DNA of 64,000 bases, from sequence record PV660448. The stretch is one strand, 5' to 3'. A model generated the notes under the pieces. It worked only from the letters and a program-made list of their open reading frames with translations, was not told where the DNA came from and searched no databases. Positions 512 to 51,732 of this stretch are shown piece by piece (within the stretch, counting starts at the first letter, position 1; every line of letters begins with the position of its first letter). Position numbers and translations under genes: made by a program. The stretch is from Escherichia phage LF82-4.

Positions 512-542
512 ATTATACTCTAATCCGTCCTTGGATGTAAAC
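512..542 (-). promoter_or_regulatory. T4-type early promoter (GTTTAC -35, TATAAT -10)
   Basis: minus-strand GTTTACATCCAAGGACGGATTAGAGTATAAT upstream of ORF 290-487. Confidence 0.55.
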
Positions 543-7291: not shown

Positions 7292-7590
7292 TATTTTATT
7301 CCTAAGAAAGTTTCAAGAATACGAATGTTATGCTCGCGCCGGTCTTTATTAATTTCAGCAACGTTTTTATTAATTGACGTACTTCTAACGTTTGAAGAAA
7401 TAAATTTAATCATATGACTTTTGAGTTGTTGCAAATCCAACCCTTTTTCTTTAGCAGCTTTACGAAGAGCTTTACCTGCTTCATCTAGTGCCTTTGCTGC
7501 ATCTTTGTCATAATTGCCAAGTGACATTCCACGACAGATATCAATATACTCATCAGACCGTTTGATGTAATTCTCTAGTAATGTTTTCAT
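7291..7590 (-). CDS. hypothetical protein (99 aa)
   Basis: ORF track; promoter upstream. Confidence 0.45.
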
Positions 7591-45965: not shown

Positions 45966-46010
45966 GTTGTCTCCTCGTTATGAAGGTATTCTATCATCCG
46001 AAATCTAAAG

Positions 46011-46028
46011 CAAAAAGGGCCGAAGCCC
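46011..46028 (-). terminator. small hairpin terminator (GGGC-CGAA-GCCC plus T-run)
   Basis: hairpin followed by TTTTTG on minus strand. Confidence 0.45.
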
Positions 46029-46454
46029 TTATTTAAATTTAATTTTCTGAAGTGCATCAATTACAGCCAAACGCCCTTGTTCACTTTTAACTGTAATGAC
46101 CACATCGCCTGATACGATCACCGAACCATCAACAAATTCTATAGAGCCTTTTTTGAAATCGACAGCTGTATCTGGTTCCTGAACTTCTTCAAAGAATTTA
46201 AATTCTGCACCATAAAGCAGAATATCACCTTGCATACTATGAATAGTTCGGCCATAATCGCCTACGGCTTCTACAGCAATCATTGAAACGCCGTAACCAA
46301 TCATCTCTTCCACAATAAAATCTTTGGACAATAAAGTAGTATGCAGATTAGTATTAAGACGTTTACCAGTCGTATTAAGAATTCTCAAGAAATTATCTTC
46401 TTGACCTTTGATAATACGATATTTCTTACCAACTTCAAAACCTTTAAAAGCCAT
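46029..46454 (-). CDS. hypothetical protein (141 aa; possibly goF-like)
   Basis: ORF track; length equals T4 GoF. Confidence 0.4.
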   Translation of the reverse strand: MAFKGFEVGKKYRIIKGQEDNFLRILNTTGKRLNTNLHTTLLSKDFIVEEMIGYGVSMIAVEAVGDYGRTIHSMQGDILLYGAEFKFFEEVQEPDTAVDFKKGSIEFVDGSVIVSGDVVITVKSEQGRLAVIDALQKIKFK

Positions 46455-46456
46455 AA

Positions 46457-46636
46457 TTAACCCTTCTTAAGTAAGTCGTAAAAACCACCGTTCACATGTT
46501 TAGGAGCAGAAACCCGACGAGTAGACAGACGATGACATTCAGGGCAAACATCGTTTTCTCGTTCAGAAATTCTTTTAATTTTTTCATATTCATGACCGCA
46601 ATCTTCAGATTGACATTTATAGTCGTATAACGGCAT
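46457..46636 (-). CDS. FmdB-type zinc-ribbon protein (59 aa), below ORF-track cut-off
   Basis: manual translation MPLYDYKCQSEDCGHEYEKIKRISERENDVCPECHRLSTRR...; CxxC...CxxC. Confidence 0.45.
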   Translation of the reverse strand: MPLYDYKCQSEDCGHEYEKIKRISERENDVCPECHRLSTRRVSAPKHVNGGFYDLLKKG

Positions 46637-46638
46637 TA

Positions 46639-47067
46639 TTATTCCTTAAAATGTGCTTTCAACATTTGATACAAAGACCATGCCTGGTCGTTATTTTCGA
46701 TAGTAATTGTCATCACCGGAAATTCAGACAATTCGTCAAGTTCACCAGAATCTTGCTCTTCGGACGCTTGATACGGATTTCCCACTTCATCAAAAAACTC
46801 TGCTTCACTAGTAGAGAGCCAGATAAAGTTTTCATCAAGAATATCACCGCCTGTTGCGTATCCAACCATGCCAGTAGATGTCACAATTTTAGTAGGACGA
46901 CCAAGATGGTCAACATCTAATACTTTAAATGGTTCCGGGCCAAGACGTCGTGCATAAATCCCATTATCAGTGTGGTTTTTAATAAACTCTTCTTGGACAC
47001 GTTTATCTTTAAATTGGTACCATGAGTTAACGCGGAATTTATTAGCCATTAGTAAGTTTCCTTCCAA
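46639..47067 (-). CDS. hypothetical protein (142 aa)
   Basis: ORF track. Confidence 0.4.
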
Positions 47068-47276
47068 TAAGTTGTACCGTTTTCAGTGATTTCACGGAAG
47101 ATACCGTAGATAGGCATTTCATCGCCGAGTTTTTCGTAAACGTAAACCACTTCGGTGTAGCATAAAAATCCGGTCCAGTTTTTCTGTACAACAACTAAAT
47201 CAGGATTAAACAGAACATCTTCAAACTCATCGATGTTTGAATCAGTAGTTACGTTTTTAATGATTTGACGTTTCAT
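47049..47276 (-). CDS. hypothetical protein (75 aa from internal Met)
   Basis: trimmed from ORF 47049-47321; RBS GAGGAG. Confidence 0.4.
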
Positions 47277-47333
47277 AATATTCTCCTCTTGTTTTGATAG
47301 GTCTATAGTATCATAGACCATAGTTGTTGTACA

Positions 47334-47858
47334 TCATTTTAGCAAAATAAAATCAACTTGTTCTGCCAATGAACGTCTAAACATTAATTGACAACTTCCG
47401 AGGATGAAATCAGGTGCTTCATAGACCGCAATGTAGTATCCTTTAGCTTTCAAGAGTTCAACATCCACCTGGTCATCAAACCATGCATAAACCGCGTCAA
47501 CACTTTCAAATCCAAAATAGAACCCTTGAGCCCAATCTTCACTCAATTCAAATGTGTACTCAATTCTATGGTATCTTAAGATATTTTGTTCAAGAAGTTT
47601 GTCTTCATTTACTGTAGGACGATTAGGGACATTATAGTTGTCGCCGTGATGGTAGAAGTTACCTGAGAGTATTCCATGCTTATCAAGGAACTCCCATGTT
47701 TCTTCAGAGTTGTCAGTGCCAGACCAACCGTAAGGTGAGCGAGGTTCTTTATTCCAAGAGGTTTCCCAAATTCTGACGGCTTTACCGTCTTCGATAGCAA
47801 TTCCTGGTAATGATTCACGTTGAGTGCAAAAACTACGTTCTACGCGATAAACTAACAT
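47334..47858 (-). CDS. hypothetical protein (174 aa)
   Basis: ORF track. Confidence 0.45.
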   Translation of the reverse strand: MLVYRVERSFCTQRESLPGIAIEDGKAVRIWETSWNKEPRSPYGWSGTDNSEETWEFLDKHGILSGNFYHHGDNYNVPNRPTVNEDKLLEQNILRYHRIEYTFELSEDWAQGFYFGFESVDAVYAWFDDQVDVELLKAKGYYIAVYEAPDFILGSCQLMFRRSLAEQVDFILLK

Positions 47859-47884
47859 ATTATTCTCCTCTGGTTGATATGGTT

Positions 47885-47913
47885 ATAATATCAAAACCAG
47901 AGGAGAAGTAAAC
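47885..47913 (-). promoter_or_regulatory. T4-type early promoter within inverted repeat CTCTGGTT/AACCAGAG
   Basis: minus-strand GTTTAC-N17-TATTAT. Confidence 0.5.
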
Positions 47914-47917
47914 AACT

Positions 47918-48337
47918 TTATGCGAAAGCAGCCGGGCTATATTTTTTAATTTGGAATTCAGGAACTACCATGAACTGACCAGCGAAAACGATGTTATAAA
48001 GCTTAACACCATCTTCTACCCAACGGTCGCTAATAAATCCGGCGATTTGCTTAGTTTTCCATGGCGTTCCATCAGTTGCCGCAGCAATAGTGAATTCATG
48101 GTCTTTTTCAACAGAAACTGATCTGCATAGTCCCCATTTGAACGCTTTTTCTTCTGGCTCAATGAACTGGCTTGAGACGTAGCCAATATTACCATTAGCA
48201 TCACGAACTTTAACTTGGTTACGACCAAAAACCGGATCACTCACAGAAAGAACTTCAACCAACTTCCCGGCAACTTTAGAGCGAGAAGCAACAGATACAT
48301 ATACGTAATCACCTGTAGAGAGATTTACAATATTCAT
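47918..48337 (-). CDS. paralog family member 1 (139 aa)
   Basis: shares C-terminal block FISD.WVEDG.KLYNIVF.G.F.VV with next two ORFs. Confidence 0.5.
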   Translation of the reverse strand: MNIVNLSTGDYVYVSVASRSKVAGKLVEVLSVSDPVFGRNQVKVRDANGNIGYVSSQFIEPEEKAFKWGLCRSVSVEKDHEFTIAAATDGTPWKTKQIAGFISDRWVEDGVKLYNIVFAGQFMVVPEFQIKKYSPAAFA

Positions 48338-48346
48338 AATAATTCC

Positions 48347-48802
48347 TTAAGCTTTACGAGGAGACACATAGCGAGTGATTTCAGATTCTTTAACAACTCG
48401 GAAGTCACCTAAGAATACGATATTGTATAACTTTTCACCATCTTCAACCCATTGGTCACTGATGAAGCCGCACATAATATCAGTTTTGTTTGGATAACCA
48501 TATTCGTCGATGAAATCAAATTCTTTATCAGTCCGGAATTCAACGCCTTTGCAAAGGGCCCATTTGAACTGTACATTAGGTTCAGTAGAAGCAAAATGAG
48601 CGCTCACATGAGTTTCCAAGAATTTAGGACTTACGTAAGCGTACTGAGTTTCAGTTTTTCCAGAACTAGGAATGATTCGAACTTTAACTTCTTTAACACG
48701 ACCAGTACCATTAGTACGAAGTCCTACCACTTCAACTAGACGACCTGCAGCTTTAGAACGAGATGCAGATGATACACGCTTAATTTCACCAATAGTAATC
48801 AT
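48347..48802 (-). CDS. paralog family member 2 (about 151 aa)
   Basis: start set at first ATG downstream of promoter 48833-48862. Confidence 0.5.
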   Translation of the reverse strand: MITIGEIKRVSSASRSKAAGRLVEVVGLRTNGTGRVKEVKVRIIPSSGKTETQYAYVSPKFLETHVSAHFASTEPNVQFKWALCKGVEFRTDKEFDFIDEYGYPNKTDIMCGFISDQWVEDGEKLYNIVFLGDFRVVKESEITRYVSPRKA

Positions 48803-48832
48803 AATTTCTCTCTCTTTGTTTAAGTTGAATTC

Positions 48833-48862
48833 ATTATACTCCATCCGTCCTTGGATGTACAA
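48833..48862 (-). promoter_or_regulatory. T4-type early promoter (member of duplicated promoter family)
   Basis: near-identical to promoters at 512-542 and 49390-49419. Confidence 0.45.
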
Positions 48863-48864
48863 CA

Positions 48865-49359
48865 TTAATTAAGGATATTAACCACAGCACTACGTGGAAC
48901 TACACTAAAATCACCTGCATGAACAACGTTCAGAAGTTCAACACCGTCTTCAATCCATTGGTCAGTTACCCATCCATTTACTGGACCAGCGAATGGGCGT
49001 CGAATTGAAACATATTTACACAACAAATCAGTAGGCTCAATAGGCTTAATCAGAGTACCGTACATACAAGCGATATCCATATCAATACAGATATCTTTAA
49101 CGGGTTCTACTTCTTCAATCAACAGTTCAAAGTCGGTGCTTGGAAGGGCGGTAGTAGAAATTGTACCATATGAATTTTTAATTTCTAAGAATAACCAAGG
49201 GCCTTCAACTTGTTTGATGAAGTTAACAATAGTGAAACTATTACCTTGAGTGGCACCTAAAATTTCACAAAACTTTTCATAAGCTCGCACTGAAGCACCA
49301 TACCAGTTGATTTGTTTTTCATCTTTCAGGATGTAAGTAGCCGTAGTATTGATATTCAT
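48865..49359 (-). CDS. paralog family member 3 (about 164 aa)
   Basis: start set at first ATG downstream of promoter 49390-49419. Confidence 0.5.
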   Translation of the reverse strand: MNINTTATYILKDEKQINWYGASVRAYEKFCEILGATQGNSFTIVNFIKQVEGPWLFLEIKNSYGTISTTALPSTDFELLIEEVEPVKDICIDMDIACMYGTLIKPIEPTDLLCKYVSIRRPFAGPVNGWVTDQWIEDGVELLNVVHAGDFSVVPRSAVVNILN

Positions 49360-49389
49360 AATGTTTTCCTGTTTGGTTAAGATAGAAAG

Positions 49390-49419
49390 ATTATACTCCA
49401 ACCATCCTTGGTTGTAAAC
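49390..49419 (-). promoter_or_regulatory. T4-type early promoter
   Basis: minus-strand GTTTAC-N18-TATAAT. Confidence 0.5.
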
Positions 49420-49423
49420 TGTT

Positions 49424-50101
49424 TTATCGCTGTTTTACACTTAACGGATCAGGATTCTCAGGTAAATCTTCAAGGCCAAGCGCATAACGCTGAGCATATT
49501 TTAACATCAAAATATCTTTAGCACAATCATGAATACTATCATGGGCAACGAATCCTTTTAGCGTACCCATCGGTAATGGACACATACTTAATCCTCGTGT
49601 CAACGAGTAAGCTTCGATTGCCGTACGAATATCGCGTTGAGCCCAGAATTTAACCGGTTCTAATTTATCGGTATCAATATCTGGTTCAAGAACACCTTCA
49701 TCACGATAGAGGTCACGAATCAAATCGACCAAGATCGGGAAGTCAAAGCTCATACCACGGCACCACATCTGTGATTTCCATTGGTCAACTTTATTAGCTC
49801 GGCAATAGTCTAAAAAGATTTTAATGCCTTCAAGCGTAGTGACATCGTCTTCAGACGGGGCCAAGTTTTTACGTGCTTCAGCCGATTGTTCTTTCCACCA
49901 TTTCATAGTGGATTTAGCGAAAACTCGCTTCCCTTTCTGAGAAGCTAAATTAAATTTAATTCGCTTACCTCGTTGAACAAGTTCTTCGAATGATTCAACA
50001 ATTTCAGGGTCCGAATTATATGCAATAACCGCAAGGTCAATAACAGCAGCTTTTGACGTATTGCCGAATGTTTCAAAATCTATAATAACATCAGTGCTCA
50101 T
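49424..50101 (-). CDS. dexA: exonuclease A (DnaQ-like 3-prime to 5-prime exonuclease)
   Basis: 225 aa; DxE exonuclease motif near N-terminus (IIDFETFG). Confidence 0.85.
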   Translation of the reverse strand: MSTDVIIDFETFGNTSKAAVIDLAVIAYNSDPEIVESFEELVQRGKRIKFNLASQKGKRVFAKSTMKWWKEQSAEARKNLAPSEDDVTTLEGIKIFLDYCRANKVDQWKSQMWCRGMSFDFPILVDLIRDLYRDEGVLEPDIDTDKLEPVKFWAQRDIRTAIEAYSLTRGLSMCPLPMGTLKGFVAHDSIHDCAKDILMLKYAQRYALGLEDLPENPDPLSVKQR

Positions 50102-50110
50102 AATTTTCTC

Positions 50111-51424
50111 TCAAATAAAATGGACGTCAAAACGACCACGAGTTGTGCCGACATACAATAACTGTTTAGCTAATTCTGAATCGGCATAATGGATACACGG
50201 TGTATAAACAAAGGCCGTGTCAACAGACATACCCTGGGCCTTATGGAAGGTTGATACTGGTAGTGCCTTCACCTTAGTGAACATACGTTTAGCATCCCAG
50301 AATTCACTCCATGGAGCTTTACCACCTTTATTCCAGAATTTGTATGTTTCTGCAGTCTTAGCCAAAAACAAATTGAATTTATAAAGCTCTTCTTCAGAAG
50401 AAATAACCTTTATATCTTCGCGGATGTATTCTTCATCATCCCCATATGTTTCTACTGTAAGATTCCAGTATCGTATCATATATTCGCCCGAAACACCACG
50501 TGCTTTAACGAATGTAGACGTTTCTACAGCATCTCGAATACGAACGAATTGCCCGTTATTGAAAAGCATTTCGGTCATATTTTTACCGTCTAGCTTATAT
50601 GTCTTAGTAAATGGCTCTTGTAGAACAATGACTTCGTCTTTAATAAATGGTTTTTCTGTTTCAAGAAGTTTTCGGCGAATAATTGAATTTAACTTGTCCA
50701 CCGACTTATTTGTGAATGCCATCATTCGATTTTCGAAAAGGTCTTCAGGAGTTTTAACGACGTTAAAATAGTTCATCATATACGATTTAAGGTCTGTATA
50801 TCCATGAACGCCGTGCCCATCAACTACTTTATCGTAAATCCATTTGCCATTACGAATATCAGTCGCAACATCAATAATTGGTGCATTGCTACGTTTAACT
50901 TCTGTAAGGTTGCATTGCACGAAGTCTTTGTGAGTGAAGAAAGGACTTAGATACGCAGTGGATTCGCCTGGGTCTACCGGACGAATCTGACATCGGTCAC
51001 CAATTCCAATTACTGTACACCATTTAGGGATACTAGCTAACATTATTTTAAACAGAGAACGGTCACACATTGACGCTTCATCAAATAACAGTACACGACA
51101 CAAGGCTAAGTCGGGAACCTTTTTCTGTTCAAACAATACGTTTTCTTCGTATGTGGTTGGGTTGATTTTAAGAATGCTATGAATGGTTGATGCTTCTTGA
51201 CCCGCAAGTTTGCTTAGAACCTTTTTAGCAGCATGTGTAGGGGCTGCTAAAATAATACCTGATTCTCCAGAAGAAATAAGGGCTTCAACGATGAATCTAG
51301 TAAGGGTTGTTTTACCTGTACCAGCAGGCCCATTAATAGTTACGTGATGTTTCTTTTCTTTAATAGCGTTCATAACAACGTTGAAGGCGTTTTTCTGGCC
51401 TTCAGTCAAATCATCAAATGTCAT
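50111..51424 (-). CDS. dda: Dda DNA helicase (SF1B)
   Basis: 437 aa; Walker A GPAGTGKT. Confidence 0.9.
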   Translation of the reverse strand: MTFDDLTEGQKNAFNVVMNAIKEKKHHVTINGPAGTGKTTLTRFIVEALISSGESGIILAAPTHAAKKVLSKLAGQEASTIHSILKINPTTYEENVLFEQKKVPDLALCRVLLFDEASMCDRSLFKIMLASIPKWCTVIGIGDRCQIRPVDPGESTAYLSPFFTHKDFVQCNLTEVKRSNAPIIDVATDIRNGKWIYDKVVDGHGVHGYTDLKSYMMNYFNVVKTPEDLFENRMMAFTNKSVDKLNSIIRRKLLETEKPFIKDEVIVLQEPFTKTYKLDGKNMTEMLFNNGQFVRIRDAVETSTFVKARGVSGEYMIRYWNLTVETYGDDEEYIREDIKVISSEEELYKFNLFLAKTAETYKFWNKGGKAPWSEFWDAKRMFTKVKALPVSTFHKAQGMSVDTAFVYTPCIHYADSELAKQLLYVGTTRGRFDVHFI

Positions 51425-51732
51425 CGTAAAGTCCCTGCAATTGGAATACTAACAATACGGCCTGTGTCCAGGATTCGTTGATACAATCTTTGCGTCTCCG
51501 CATCTAGTTTAACGTGTTTCATTTCAAGCTTATTAAACCAGAACTTACGCGGAGTTTCGACCATTCTTAGAACTCCCATTTTTAAATCTGTTTTATACTG
51601 TGTTTTCAAAGTATCGAAAACTTTATCTGCAATATCCTTTCTAAAAAATACTGCAGGACGATGCTCATCAAGTGGAACCGGGACAGTAAATCCTTCCATA
51701 TCTCGATAAACTATTGCATATACATAAACCAT
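51421..51732 (-). CDS. hypothetical protein (103 aa), dda.1 position
   Basis: ORF track; synteny. Confidence 0.5.
   Translation of the reverse strand: MVYVYAIVYRDMEGFTVPVPLDEHRPAVFFRKDIADKVFDTLKTQYKTDLKMGVLRMVETPRKFWFNKLEMKHVKLDAETQRLYQRILDTGRIVSIPIAGTLR

What the first reader, a model, noticed from the sequence alone, without database searches (positions are those of the whole stretch)
47918..49359. Three tandem paralogs upstream of dexA, two with their own near-identical promoter cassette
Three consecutive ORFs share a conserved C-terminal block (FISD.WVEDG.KLYNIVF.G.F.VV). The promoter cassettes at 48833-48862 and 49390-49419 are near-copies of each other and of the promoter at 512-542 (ATTATACTC...TCCTTGG.TGTA(A/C)A). 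This indicates recent segmental duplication, and the distant copy at 512-542 is a possible recombination partner.
Basis: seen in the sequence. Interest (0 to 1): 0.4.

Follow-up and report, generated by a model that had tools for sequence, protein, structure and literature searches.

The report
MotB-family gene trio in RB69-like phage
The three neighbouring genes are the already described motB.1, motB and second-motB genes of an RB69-like T4-type phage, read from two ordinary T4-style early promoters, so the finding is real but ordinary and not a recent duplication.

Summary
Three adjacent minus-strand ORFs (47918-49359) share a C-terminal block, and three ~30-nt promoter-like sequences (49390-49419, 48833-48862, 512-542) are near-copies.

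The window is a Mosigvirus, 99% identical to phage FP43. The ORFs are motB.1 (164 aa), motB (151 aa, true start 48802) and the RB69ORF010c-type second motB (139 aa). All three pass the Pfam motB (PF17613) cutoff. They lie downstream of dexA, not upstream.

The paralogy is published: Patterson-West 2021 lists RB69 as having two motB plus one motB.1.

It is not recent. motB and its paralog are 43% identical. motB.1 shares only about 36 C-terminal residues. A Tequatrovirus, PP01, carries the same motB/motB' pair.

The cassettes are T4-type early sigma-70 promoters of one spacer subclass (CCAAGGAYGGWTGGAG). FP43 has five copies, some before unrelated genes. Similarity stops at the promoter core, and other promoter subclasses in the window are equally or more alike. 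There is no stem-loop, so they are not strict PeSLs.

By-product: the T4 and RB69 reference records carry single-base insertions that truncate or split motB.1, whereas this window has it intact.

The parts
49390..49419 (-). T4-type early sigma-70 promoter of motB.1 (GTTTACA, 17-nt spacer ACCAAGGATGGTTGGAG, TATAAT); spacer subclass 'A'
   Evidence: 11 of 12 hexamer matches. It lies between the dexA stop (49424) and the motB.1 ATG (49359). No experimental transcription start is available.
48865..49359 (-). motB.1, intact, 164 aa, acidic (net charge -9). Beta-rich N-terminal domain, disordered linker carrying a DMDIACMYGTLIKPI motif, and a MotB-type C-terminal beta-barrel
48833..48862 (-). T4-type early promoter of motB (TTGTACA, 17-nt spacer TCCAAGGACGGATGGAG, TATAAT); spacer subclass 'A'. 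It begins immediately after the motB.1 stop codon
   Evidence: 25 of 30 positions identical to the 49390-49419 copy.
48347..48802 (-). motB, 151 aa, ortholog of RB69 MotB (95% identical) and T4 MotB (48%). Basic N-terminal domain (net +7)
   Evidence: Pfam PF17613 at 131.7 bits, phrog_1671 E 6e-64. BLASTP. Domain charges. The start at 48802 matches the RB69 annotation.
47918..48337 (-). Second motB paralog (RB69ORF010c type), 139 aa. No promoter of its own. Its Shine-Dalgarno sequence AAGGA overlaps the motB stop codon (9-nt gap)
512..542 (-). Third copy of the subclass-A early promoter (GTTTACA, 18-nt spacer TCCAAGGACGGATTAGAG, TATAAT), in front of an unrelated 65-aa ORF (290-487)
   Evidence: The downstream gene belongs to phrog_1690, function unknown.

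Best explanation
This is the motB locus of an RB69-like Mosigvirus, in the dispensable early region between dexA and cef. Three MotB-family genes lie head to tail on the minus strand.

Transcription (inferred). Two T4-type early sigma-70 promoters drive them, one before motB.1 and one before motB. The scan found no terminator between the genes, so host RNA polymerase should transcribe them immediately after infection. The third gene, motB', would be co-transcribed with motB and may be translationally coupled to it.

Protein function. By homology to T4 MotB (48% identity), motB should encode a small, basic, non-sequence-specific DNA-binding protein. In T4 this protein alters how host H-NS/StpA sits on DNA and raises burst size about two-fold. 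That activity is shown for T4 and inferred here.

Architecture. All three proteins share a roughly 50-residue C-terminal small beta-barrel, which contains the conserved block. It is attached to different N-terminal barrels:
- a basic KOW/Tudor-like domain in MotB;
- a near-neutral version of the same domain in MotB';
- an unrelated acidic beta-domain in MotB.1, described in the literature as LSm-like.

Origin. The family grew by old tandem duplication plus domain and segment shuffling, not by a recent duplication.

The promoter cassettes resemble each other because they belong to one spacer subclass of the phage's early promoters. There are five copies in the FP43 genome, and several other subclasses exist.
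For: Identity of the window and its genes:
- 99% identical to phage FP43. The RB69 annotation reads dexA, motB.1, ORF012c, motB, ORF010c 'similar to motB', motB.2, cef.
- Pfam and PHROG matches and BLASTP values.

Published background:
- PMC7827196 states that MotB and MotB.1 share a C-terminal domain with different N-terminal domains, and that RB69 has two motB, one motB.1 and a 29-aa peptide.
- PMC6070864 shows that T4 MotB is toxic to E. coli, binds DNA without sequence specificity, copurifies with H-NS and StpA, and gives a two-fold burst-size effect.
- PMC12152347 describes the MotB.1 N-terminal domain as LSm-like and finds motB.1 dispensable.

Promoters:
- Hexamers and spacing match the T4/PST consensus TTTACW-N17-TAYWAT quoted in PMC4122927.
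- There are 18 early cassettes in the window, falling into subclasses.
- FP43 has two more subclass-A copies before unrelated genes. Mosigvirus records show 4-5 places each.
- No terminator-like site was found on the minus strand within 47900-49450.

Age of the duplication:
- 43% identity between motB and motB'.
- PP01, a Tequatrovirus, has the same motB/motB' pair with the same 9-nt gap.
- The motB' type at 80% identity or more occurs in 207 of 777 MotB-encoding phage records.
Against: - No transcription start or expression data exist for this phage, so the promoters are consensus matches only.
- No biochemistry exists for RB69-type MotB, MotB' or full-length MotB.1.
- MotB' has a much less basic N-terminal domain (+1 against +7) and MotB.1 is acidic. 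T4 MotB's DNA-binding activity therefore cannot simply be transferred to the two paralogs.
- Model confidence is moderate (pLDDT 76-80, pTM below 0.5).
Confidence: 0.88

Rival explanations
1. One reading: a recent segmental duplication copied promoter-plus-gene units in tandem, and the promoter copies, including the one at 512-542, are live substrates for homologous recombination.
For: - Two of the three genes are preceded by promoters identical at 25 of 30 positions, in the same register relative to the ATG. A 64-nt stretch is 75% identical at a spacing of 557 nt.
- The coding regions share short DNA repeats in register (families D2-D4, D6 and D9).
Against: - Protein identity is 43% (motB vs motB'), or limited to about 36 residues (motB.1).
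- The closest paralog pair is not the pair that carries the promoters.
- Downstream of -10, identity (56-63%) equals the background among all early cassettes (56 +/- 9%).
- The flanks upstream of -35 are unrelated.
- The motB/motB' pair is shared with a different genus.
- The longest exact promoter match is 17 nt.
Confidence: 0.05
2. The cassettes are PeSL-type mobile regulatory cassettes. Conserved early-promoter modules would have served as exchange points between co-infecting phages and shaped this locus: the move of the motB.2 module, the gain of a promoter by motB.1, and the swap of the motB promoter type.
For: - Gene order differs. T4 and PP01 have dexA-motB.2-motB.1-motB, whereas here it is dexA-motB.1-motB-motB'-motB.2.
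- motB.2 travels with its own promoter/hairpin, and the junction AAAGTTGTTTACT is the same in both contexts.
- The promoter before orthologous motB is subclass B in T4 and PP01 (AAACTCTTGGGACCAGAG) but subclass A here.
- Chimeric MotB proteins exist, with a MotB N-terminal domain joined to a motB'-type C-terminal domain: P0148, P0149, P0151. PP01 MotB is a T4/RB69 mosaic.
- The PeSL concept is published for T4/PST.
Against: - The subclass-A cassettes have no significant stem-loop (z -0.4 to -1.25), and a stem-loop is a defining part of a PeSL.
- Homology is only about 30 nt, with mismatches.
- Breakpoints have not been mapped systematically.
- Selection for promoter function alone could preserve the similarity.
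Confidence: 0.3
3. The conserved 16-17-nt spacer CCAAGGAYGGWTGGAG is a binding site for a phage or host factor, making the five subclass-A promoters a small co-regulated set.
For: - Spacer identity of 78-89% ranks 2nd to 4th among 153 promoter pairs.
- The two extra FP43 copies are identical over 22 nt.
- The motif is kept at 90% identity or more in 231 of 257 matching phage records, including some where it sits at other loci.
- The sequence has partial dyad symmetry (CCAA..TTGG).
Against: - No candidate factor is known.
- Other promoter subclasses show equal or stronger spacer conservation, explained at least partly by hairpins.
- Shared descent of promoter modules explains the data without any regulator.
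- The genes served are functionally unrelated or of unknown function.
Confidence: 0.1

Closest known systems
T4 MotB (Pfam PF17613; Patterson-West et al. 2018, PMC6070864, and 2021, PMC7827196)
   Same: The window's motB is 48% identical over the full length. It has the same predicted KOW-like basic N-terminal domain plus conserved C-terminal domain, the same early region between dexA and cef, and its own early promoter.
   Different: The promoter subclass differs (A here, B in T4). The window also carries an additional motB copy directly downstream, which T4 lacks. The biochemistry is known only for the T4 protein.
RB69ORF010c, 'similar to motB' (second motB copy noted for RB69 in PMC7827196)
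   Same: 95% identical, with the same position and the same 9-nt gap after motB.
   Different: Nothing material; this is the same gene in a sister phage. Its function has never been tested. Its N-terminal domain is far less basic than MotB's.
T4/RB69 MotB.1 (phrog_2333; Kim et al. 2025, PMC12152347)
   Same: The same N-terminal domain (37% identity to T4, 98% to RB69), described as LSm-like in the literature, and the same MotB-type C-terminal domain.
   Different: Here the gene is intact at 164 aa. The T4 reference record truncates it to 119 aa, and the RB69 record splits it into a 132-aa protein plus the 29-aa 'ORF012c'. In T4 it has no promoter of its own and follows motB.2.
PeSL promoter/stem-loop cassettes of T4-type phages (Arbiol 2010, PMC2839356; Comeau 2014, PMC4122927)
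   Same: Short conserved early-promoter modules (AT-rich region, -35, -10, Shine-Dalgarno sequence, ATG) repeated between small genes in a hyperplastic region. This locus shows rearrangements relative to T4.
   Different: The subclass-A cassettes lack the stem-loop. Other cassettes in the window (subclasses B to D, and the motB.2 promoter) do have one.

Membership tests
MotB family (Pfam PF17613) | Match to the family HMM above the curated gathering score of 25 bits | tested here: met
   131.7 bits (motB), 75.6 bits (motB') and 35.0 bits (motB.1, C-terminal part only).
MotB family (Pfam PF17613) | Two-domain architecture: KOW/SH3-like N-terminal barrel plus conserved C-terminal barrel | tested here: met
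MotB family (Pfam PF17613) | Non-specific DNA binding, copurification with H-NS/StpA, and toxicity in E. coli | not testable with these tools
   Shown only for T4 MotB. Charge profile: MotB N-terminal domain +7, motB' +1, MotB.1 net -9 overall.
MotB.1 subfamily (phrog_2333) | MotB.1-type N-terminal domain followed by a MotB-type C-terminal domain | tested here: met
   phrog_2333 E 2e-83 over residues 10-178 of the ORF. Alignment with 25 homologs. The model shows a beta-rich N-terminal domain (residues 1-82) and a C-terminal barrel (116-163).
T4-type early (sigma-70) promoter | -35 GTTTAC(A/T), 17 +/- 1 nt spacer, -10 TAYWAT, intergenic, on the same strand as and upstream of the gene | tested here: met
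   GTTTACA-17-TATAAT, TTGTACA-17-TATAAT and GTTTACA-18-TATAAT. Consensus as quoted. No MotA box (TGCTT) is visible at the -30 position in the sequences listed, so they do not look like middle promoters.
T4-type early (sigma-70) promoter | Transcript 5' ends mapped early in infection | not testable with these tools
   No transcriptome data are available here.
PeSL (promoter-early stem-loop cassette) | A stable stem-loop associated with the promoter | tested here: not met
   The three subclass-A cassettes fold no better than shuffles (z -0.62, -0.43, -1.25). For contrast, the motB.2 cassette gives z -5.45 and subclass B gives -2.3 to -2.6.
PeSL (promoter-early stem-loop cassette) | Location at insertion, deletion or exchange junctions between related phages | tested here: inconclusive
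   Gene order and promoter type differ from T4 and PP01 at this locus, but no junction was mapped to the cassette itself.
Recent segmental (tandem) duplication | High DNA identity across whole repeat units, flanks included | tested here: not met
   Only 14-64-nt repeats at 73-94% identity. Protein identity is 43% or limited to the C-terminal domain. Flanks are unrelated.

The most novel reading that the evidence does not exclude
The shared C-terminal barrel may be a common interaction module, for example for hetero-oligomerisation or for docking on H-NS/StpA. It would be fused to N-terminal domains of very different charge: basic in MotB, neutral in MotB', acidic in MotB.1. On this reading the trio is a sub-functionalised set acting together on host chromatin or RNA. 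The subclass-A promoter spacer would then co-regulate motB.1 and motB with a few other early genes. Nothing here tests this. It rests on the domain and charge pattern and on the spacer conservation.
Probability: 0.12. Interest if true: 0.45.

Novelty: already known. Interest (0 to 1): 0.15.

Why it matters
As a discovery it matters little. The paralogy, the domain sharing and RB69's extra motB copy are in the literature and in the RB69 annotation of 2003. T4-type early promoters are known to be highly stereotyped.

Two practical points may be useful to specialists.

1. The T4 reference record (NC_000866/AF158101) carries an extra G that truncates MotB.1 to 119 aa (13.8 kDa). This removes the most conserved part of the domain it shares with MotB.
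   - Thirteen other T4 records, and the protein collection, encode a 143-aa protein.
   - The 2025 MotB.1 paper quotes 13.8 kDa for the protein it expressed and cites NC_000866.4 for its T4 sequences. That suggests the truncated form was expressed, although the sequence of the expression construct was not checked.
   - The '29-aa peptide' category reported for RB69 in 2021 is the severed end of MotB.1.

2. The early promoters of this phage fall into discrete spacer subclasses. Some have a hairpin around the -10 hexamer that appears to be kept by compensatory changes. This is relevant to the PeSL shuffling hypothesis.

Tried and rejected
- A sequence search of solved structures with MotB found nothing usable (best E 0.64).
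- An Rfam scan of 46000-51500 gave only a sub-threshold Y_RNA match inside the motB.1 coding region (26.6 bits against a gathering score of 38). I judged it chance.
- Stem-loop or terminator function for the subclass-A cassettes was rejected, because they fold no better than shuffles.
- A middle (MotA-dependent) promoter was rejected by inspection. The -35 is GTTTACA or TTGTACA and no TGCTT box is visible in the sequences.
- Similarity of the 5'UTRs as evidence for duplication was rejected. At 56-63% it equals the background among 18 early cassettes.
- The 172-aa and 178-aa ORF versions from the mechanical ORF list were rejected as gene models. The longer motB ORF runs across its own promoter, and the RB69 and FP43 annotations support the ATGs at 48802 and 49359.
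- I fetched 50 kb of FP43 to count promoter copies. The rest of that genome was not fetched. The copy number per genome instead rests (4-5 places per record).

Full report
**What is there**

The window is a T4-type phage of the genus Mosigvirus. The 2.9 kb around the finding is 99.0% identical to Escherichia phage FP43 and 96.2% identical to RB69. All genes in this region are on the minus strand. In order of transcription they are:
- dda, 50111-51424
- dexA, 49424-50101
- ORF3, 48865-49359
- ORF2, 48347-48802
- ORF1, 47918-48337
- a 174-aa ORF, 47334-47858
- cef

The RB69 annotation names these genes motB.1 (with a 29-aa 'ORF012c'), motB, 'RB69ORF010c similar to motB', and motB.2. The trio therefore lies downstream of dexA, not upstream.

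**Check of the observation**

The shared C-terminal block is real and is not low-complexity.
- ORF1 and ORF2 align over their full length: 43% identity, E 2e-30.
- ORF3 shares only the last 29-36 residues with either of them, at 44-55% identity and E about 1e-9.
- All three exceed the Pfam PF17613 'motB' gathering score of 25 bits, at 75.6, 131.7 and 35.0 bits.
- PHROGs places ORF1 and ORF2 in phrog_1671 (MotB-like) and ORF3 in phrog_2333.

The two promoter-like sequences match a 27-nt pattern that has 0.01 expected chance matches in the window. The copy at 512-542 shares an exact 17-mer with the one at 48833-48862 and has one extra spacer base.

The mechanical 172-aa version of ORF2 runs across its own promoter. 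The real start is the ATG at 48802, giving 151 aa as in RB69.

**What the genes are**

T4 MotB has been studied experimentally.
- It is toxic in E. coli, binds modified and unmodified DNA without sequence specificity, copurifies with H-NS and StpA, and doubles burst size (PMC6070864).
- It changes H-NS footprints and de-represses host genes when over-expressed (PMC7827196).

The 2021 paper already states three things. MotB and MotB.1 share a C-terminal domain but have different N-terminal domains. One gene probably arose from the other by duplication. RB69 has two motB copies, one motB.1 and a 29-aa peptide. A 2025 paper predicts an LSm-like N-terminal domain in MotB.1 and shows the gene is dispensable (PMC12152347).

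**My own structural check**

- The MotB.1 model (pLDDT 79.6) has a beta-rich N-terminal domain (residues 1-82), a disordered linker (85-105) and a five-stranded C-terminal barrel (116-163). The conserved block forms strands of that barrel.
- The charge patterns differ sharply. The MotB N-terminal domain has net charge +7, that of the second copy +1, and MotB.1 is -9 overall.

The DNA-binding activity of T4 MotB can reasonably be transferred to the window's motB. It cannot simply be transferred to the two paralogs.

**Age and spread of the duplication**

- motB and its copy are 43% identical.
- The Tequatrovirus PP01 carries the same motB/motB' pair with the same 9-nt gap, and its motB' is 89% identical to the one here. 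T4 itself lacks the second copy.
- A motB' at 80% identity or more is present in 207 of 777 phage records that encode a MotB-family protein.
- The family is modular. Homologs combine the MotB.1-type C-terminal domain with at least three different N-terminal arrangements, and their lengths cluster near 144, 165, 180 and 250 aa.
- Chimeras of a MotB N-terminal domain with a motB'-type C-terminal domain exist: P0148, P0149 and P0151. PP01 MotB is a T4/RB69 mosaic.

This is an old duplication followed by shuffling, not a recent segmental duplication.

At DNA level, the units share only short repeats of 14-64 nt.

**The promoter cassettes**

All three fit the T4/PST early-promoter consensus TTTACW-N17-TAYWAT quoted in PMC4122927.

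I collected 18 such cassettes on the minus strand of the window. Identities for 153 pairs were:

| Region compared | Background, mean +/- sd | Three subclass-A pairs |
|---|---|---|
| Whole cassette (about 62 nt, -35 through 32 nt past the -10) | 60 +/- 7% | 71-73% |
| Spacer only | 47 +/- 13% | 78-89% (ranks 2-4 of 153) |
| 32 nt downstream of -10 | 56 +/- 9% | 56-63% |

Other pairs are more alike over the whole cassette, for example 35569/35248 at 87% and 38651/38139 at 79%.

Upstream of -35 the five aligned copies are unrelated. FP43 has two further copies with an identical 22-mer, in front of unrelated genes of unknown function. Mosigvirus records show 4-5 places each.

The cassettes are thus one spacer subclass (CCAAGGAYGGWTGGAG) of the phage's early promoters. 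Their similarity does not extend to the genes they serve.

They have no significant stem-loop (z -0.4 to -1.25), so they fail one defining feature of PeSLs.

The scan found no terminator between the three genes. motB' has no promoter and starts 9 nt after motB, with its Shine-Dalgarno sequence AAGGA overlapping the motB stop codon. It should therefore be co-transcribed with motB. This is an inference.

**Recombination**

Within one genome, the copy at 512-542 is a direct repeat 48 kb away with at most 17 nt of exact match. An exchange would remove about 48 kb. I infer, without having checked which genes lie in that interval, that this would not be viable.

Exchange between co-infecting phages at promoter modules remains possible.
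- Gene order differs from T4 and PP01: dexA-motB.2-motB.1-motB there, dexA-motB.1-motB-motB'-motB.2 here.
- motB.2 carries its own promoter/hairpin in both contexts, with the same AAAGTTGTTTACT junction.
- The promoter before orthologous motB is a different subclass in T4 and PP01.

I rate this published type of mechanism (PMC2839356, PMC4122927) as plausible but unproven here.

**By-products**

- The T4 reference record has GGATTGGAAGATGG where 13 other T4 records have GGATTGAAGATGG. This truncates MotB.1 to 119 aa (13.8 kDa). The downstream frame still encodes the conserved EDGVELLNVVHAGEYSVVPRSAVVAILN.
- The intact 143-aa protein (16.2 kDa) is P0011, seen on 256 contigs.
- The 2025 paper quotes 13.8 kDa for MotB.1 and cites NC_000866.4 for its T4 sequences. 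Neither paper mentions a frameshift.
- RB69's record has two extra T's, which split motB.1 into a 132-aa protein and 'ORF012c'. In this window the gene is intact.

**Verdict**

It is wrong on recency and on orientation. The feature is already known, and interest is low.

Noticed in passing
L003 1292-1651 (T4 NC_000866.4 7291-7650; extra G at about record position 7304-7305): The T4 reference record has a one-base insertion in motB.1 (GGATTGGAAG against GGATTGAAG). It is absent from 13 other T4 records. It truncates the protein to 119 aa (13.8 kDa) and removes the conserved C-terminal core. The intact form is 143 aa (16.2 kDa) and matches P0011 exactly. The 2025 MotB.1 study quotes 13.8 kDa.
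   Followed up: yes
L001 4062-4558 (RB69 AY303349 8376-8872), compared with window 48865-49359: The RB69 record has two extra T's relative to this window. They split motB.1 into a 132-aa protein and the 29-aa 'ORF012c'. The 'Category 3, 29-aa peptide' of the 2021 MotB paper is therefore the severed C-terminus of MotB.1. Whether this is a sequencing error or a true RB69 mutation was not resolved.
   Followed up: partly
window 47859-47917 (minus strand), upstream of motB.2: A strong hairpin (-24.7 kcal/mol, z -5.45) pairs CUCCUCUGGUU with AACCAGAGGAG and so sequesters the motB.2 Shine-Dalgarno sequence. An early-promoter -10 (TATTAT) sits in the loop. Read-through transcripts would have the ribosome site blocked, whereas transcripts started at this promoter would lack the 5' arm. 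This looks like the translational control I recall being described for T4 genes such as e and soc (from memory, not checked here).
   Followed up: partly
window 37878 and 7624 (minus strand); L003 about 1180-1220 (T4 motB promoter): A second early-promoter subclass has a hairpin whose loop holds the -10 hexamer. The stems read GAGAGC/GCTCTC (37878), AGGAGC/GCUCCU (7624) and GGGACC/GGTCCC (T4 and PP01 motB promoter). The stem appears to be kept by compensatory changes. Further subclasses (TATAGTagtcctatc; catgaTATTATagacctatc) also show dyads around -10.
   Followed up: partly
L005 37630-37651 and 38650-38671 (FP43, nrdC region): Two more copies of the subclass-A promoter, with an identical 22-mer, precede two adjacent roughly 315-aa genes of unknown function from different PHROG families.
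   Followed up: partly
window 48865-49359, MotB.1 residues about 90-107; proteins P0036, P0038, P0047, P0058 and others: A short motif, D(M/F)D(I/V)A(C/S)MYGTL(I/V)KP(I/L), lies in the low-confidence linker of this MotB.1. In other family members it sits at the extreme N-terminus or between a KOW-like N-terminal domain and the C-terminal domain. It behaves like a movable peptide module. Its function is unknown.
   Followed up: no
P0148, P0149, P0151; L006 2115-2591 (PP01 motB): Natural chimeras exist. A MotB-type N-terminal domain is joined to a motB'-type C-terminal domain. PP01 MotB begins like T4 MotB and continues like RB69 MotB. This indicates frequent recombination within and between the paralogs.
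   Followed up: partly
window 47334-49359 compared with L003 (T4) and L006 (PP01): motB.2 sits between dexA and motB.1 in T4 and PP01, but between motB' and cef here. In PP01, motB.1 is the long form starting right after the motB.2 stop, with no promoter; here motB.1 has its own promoter.
   Followed up: partly
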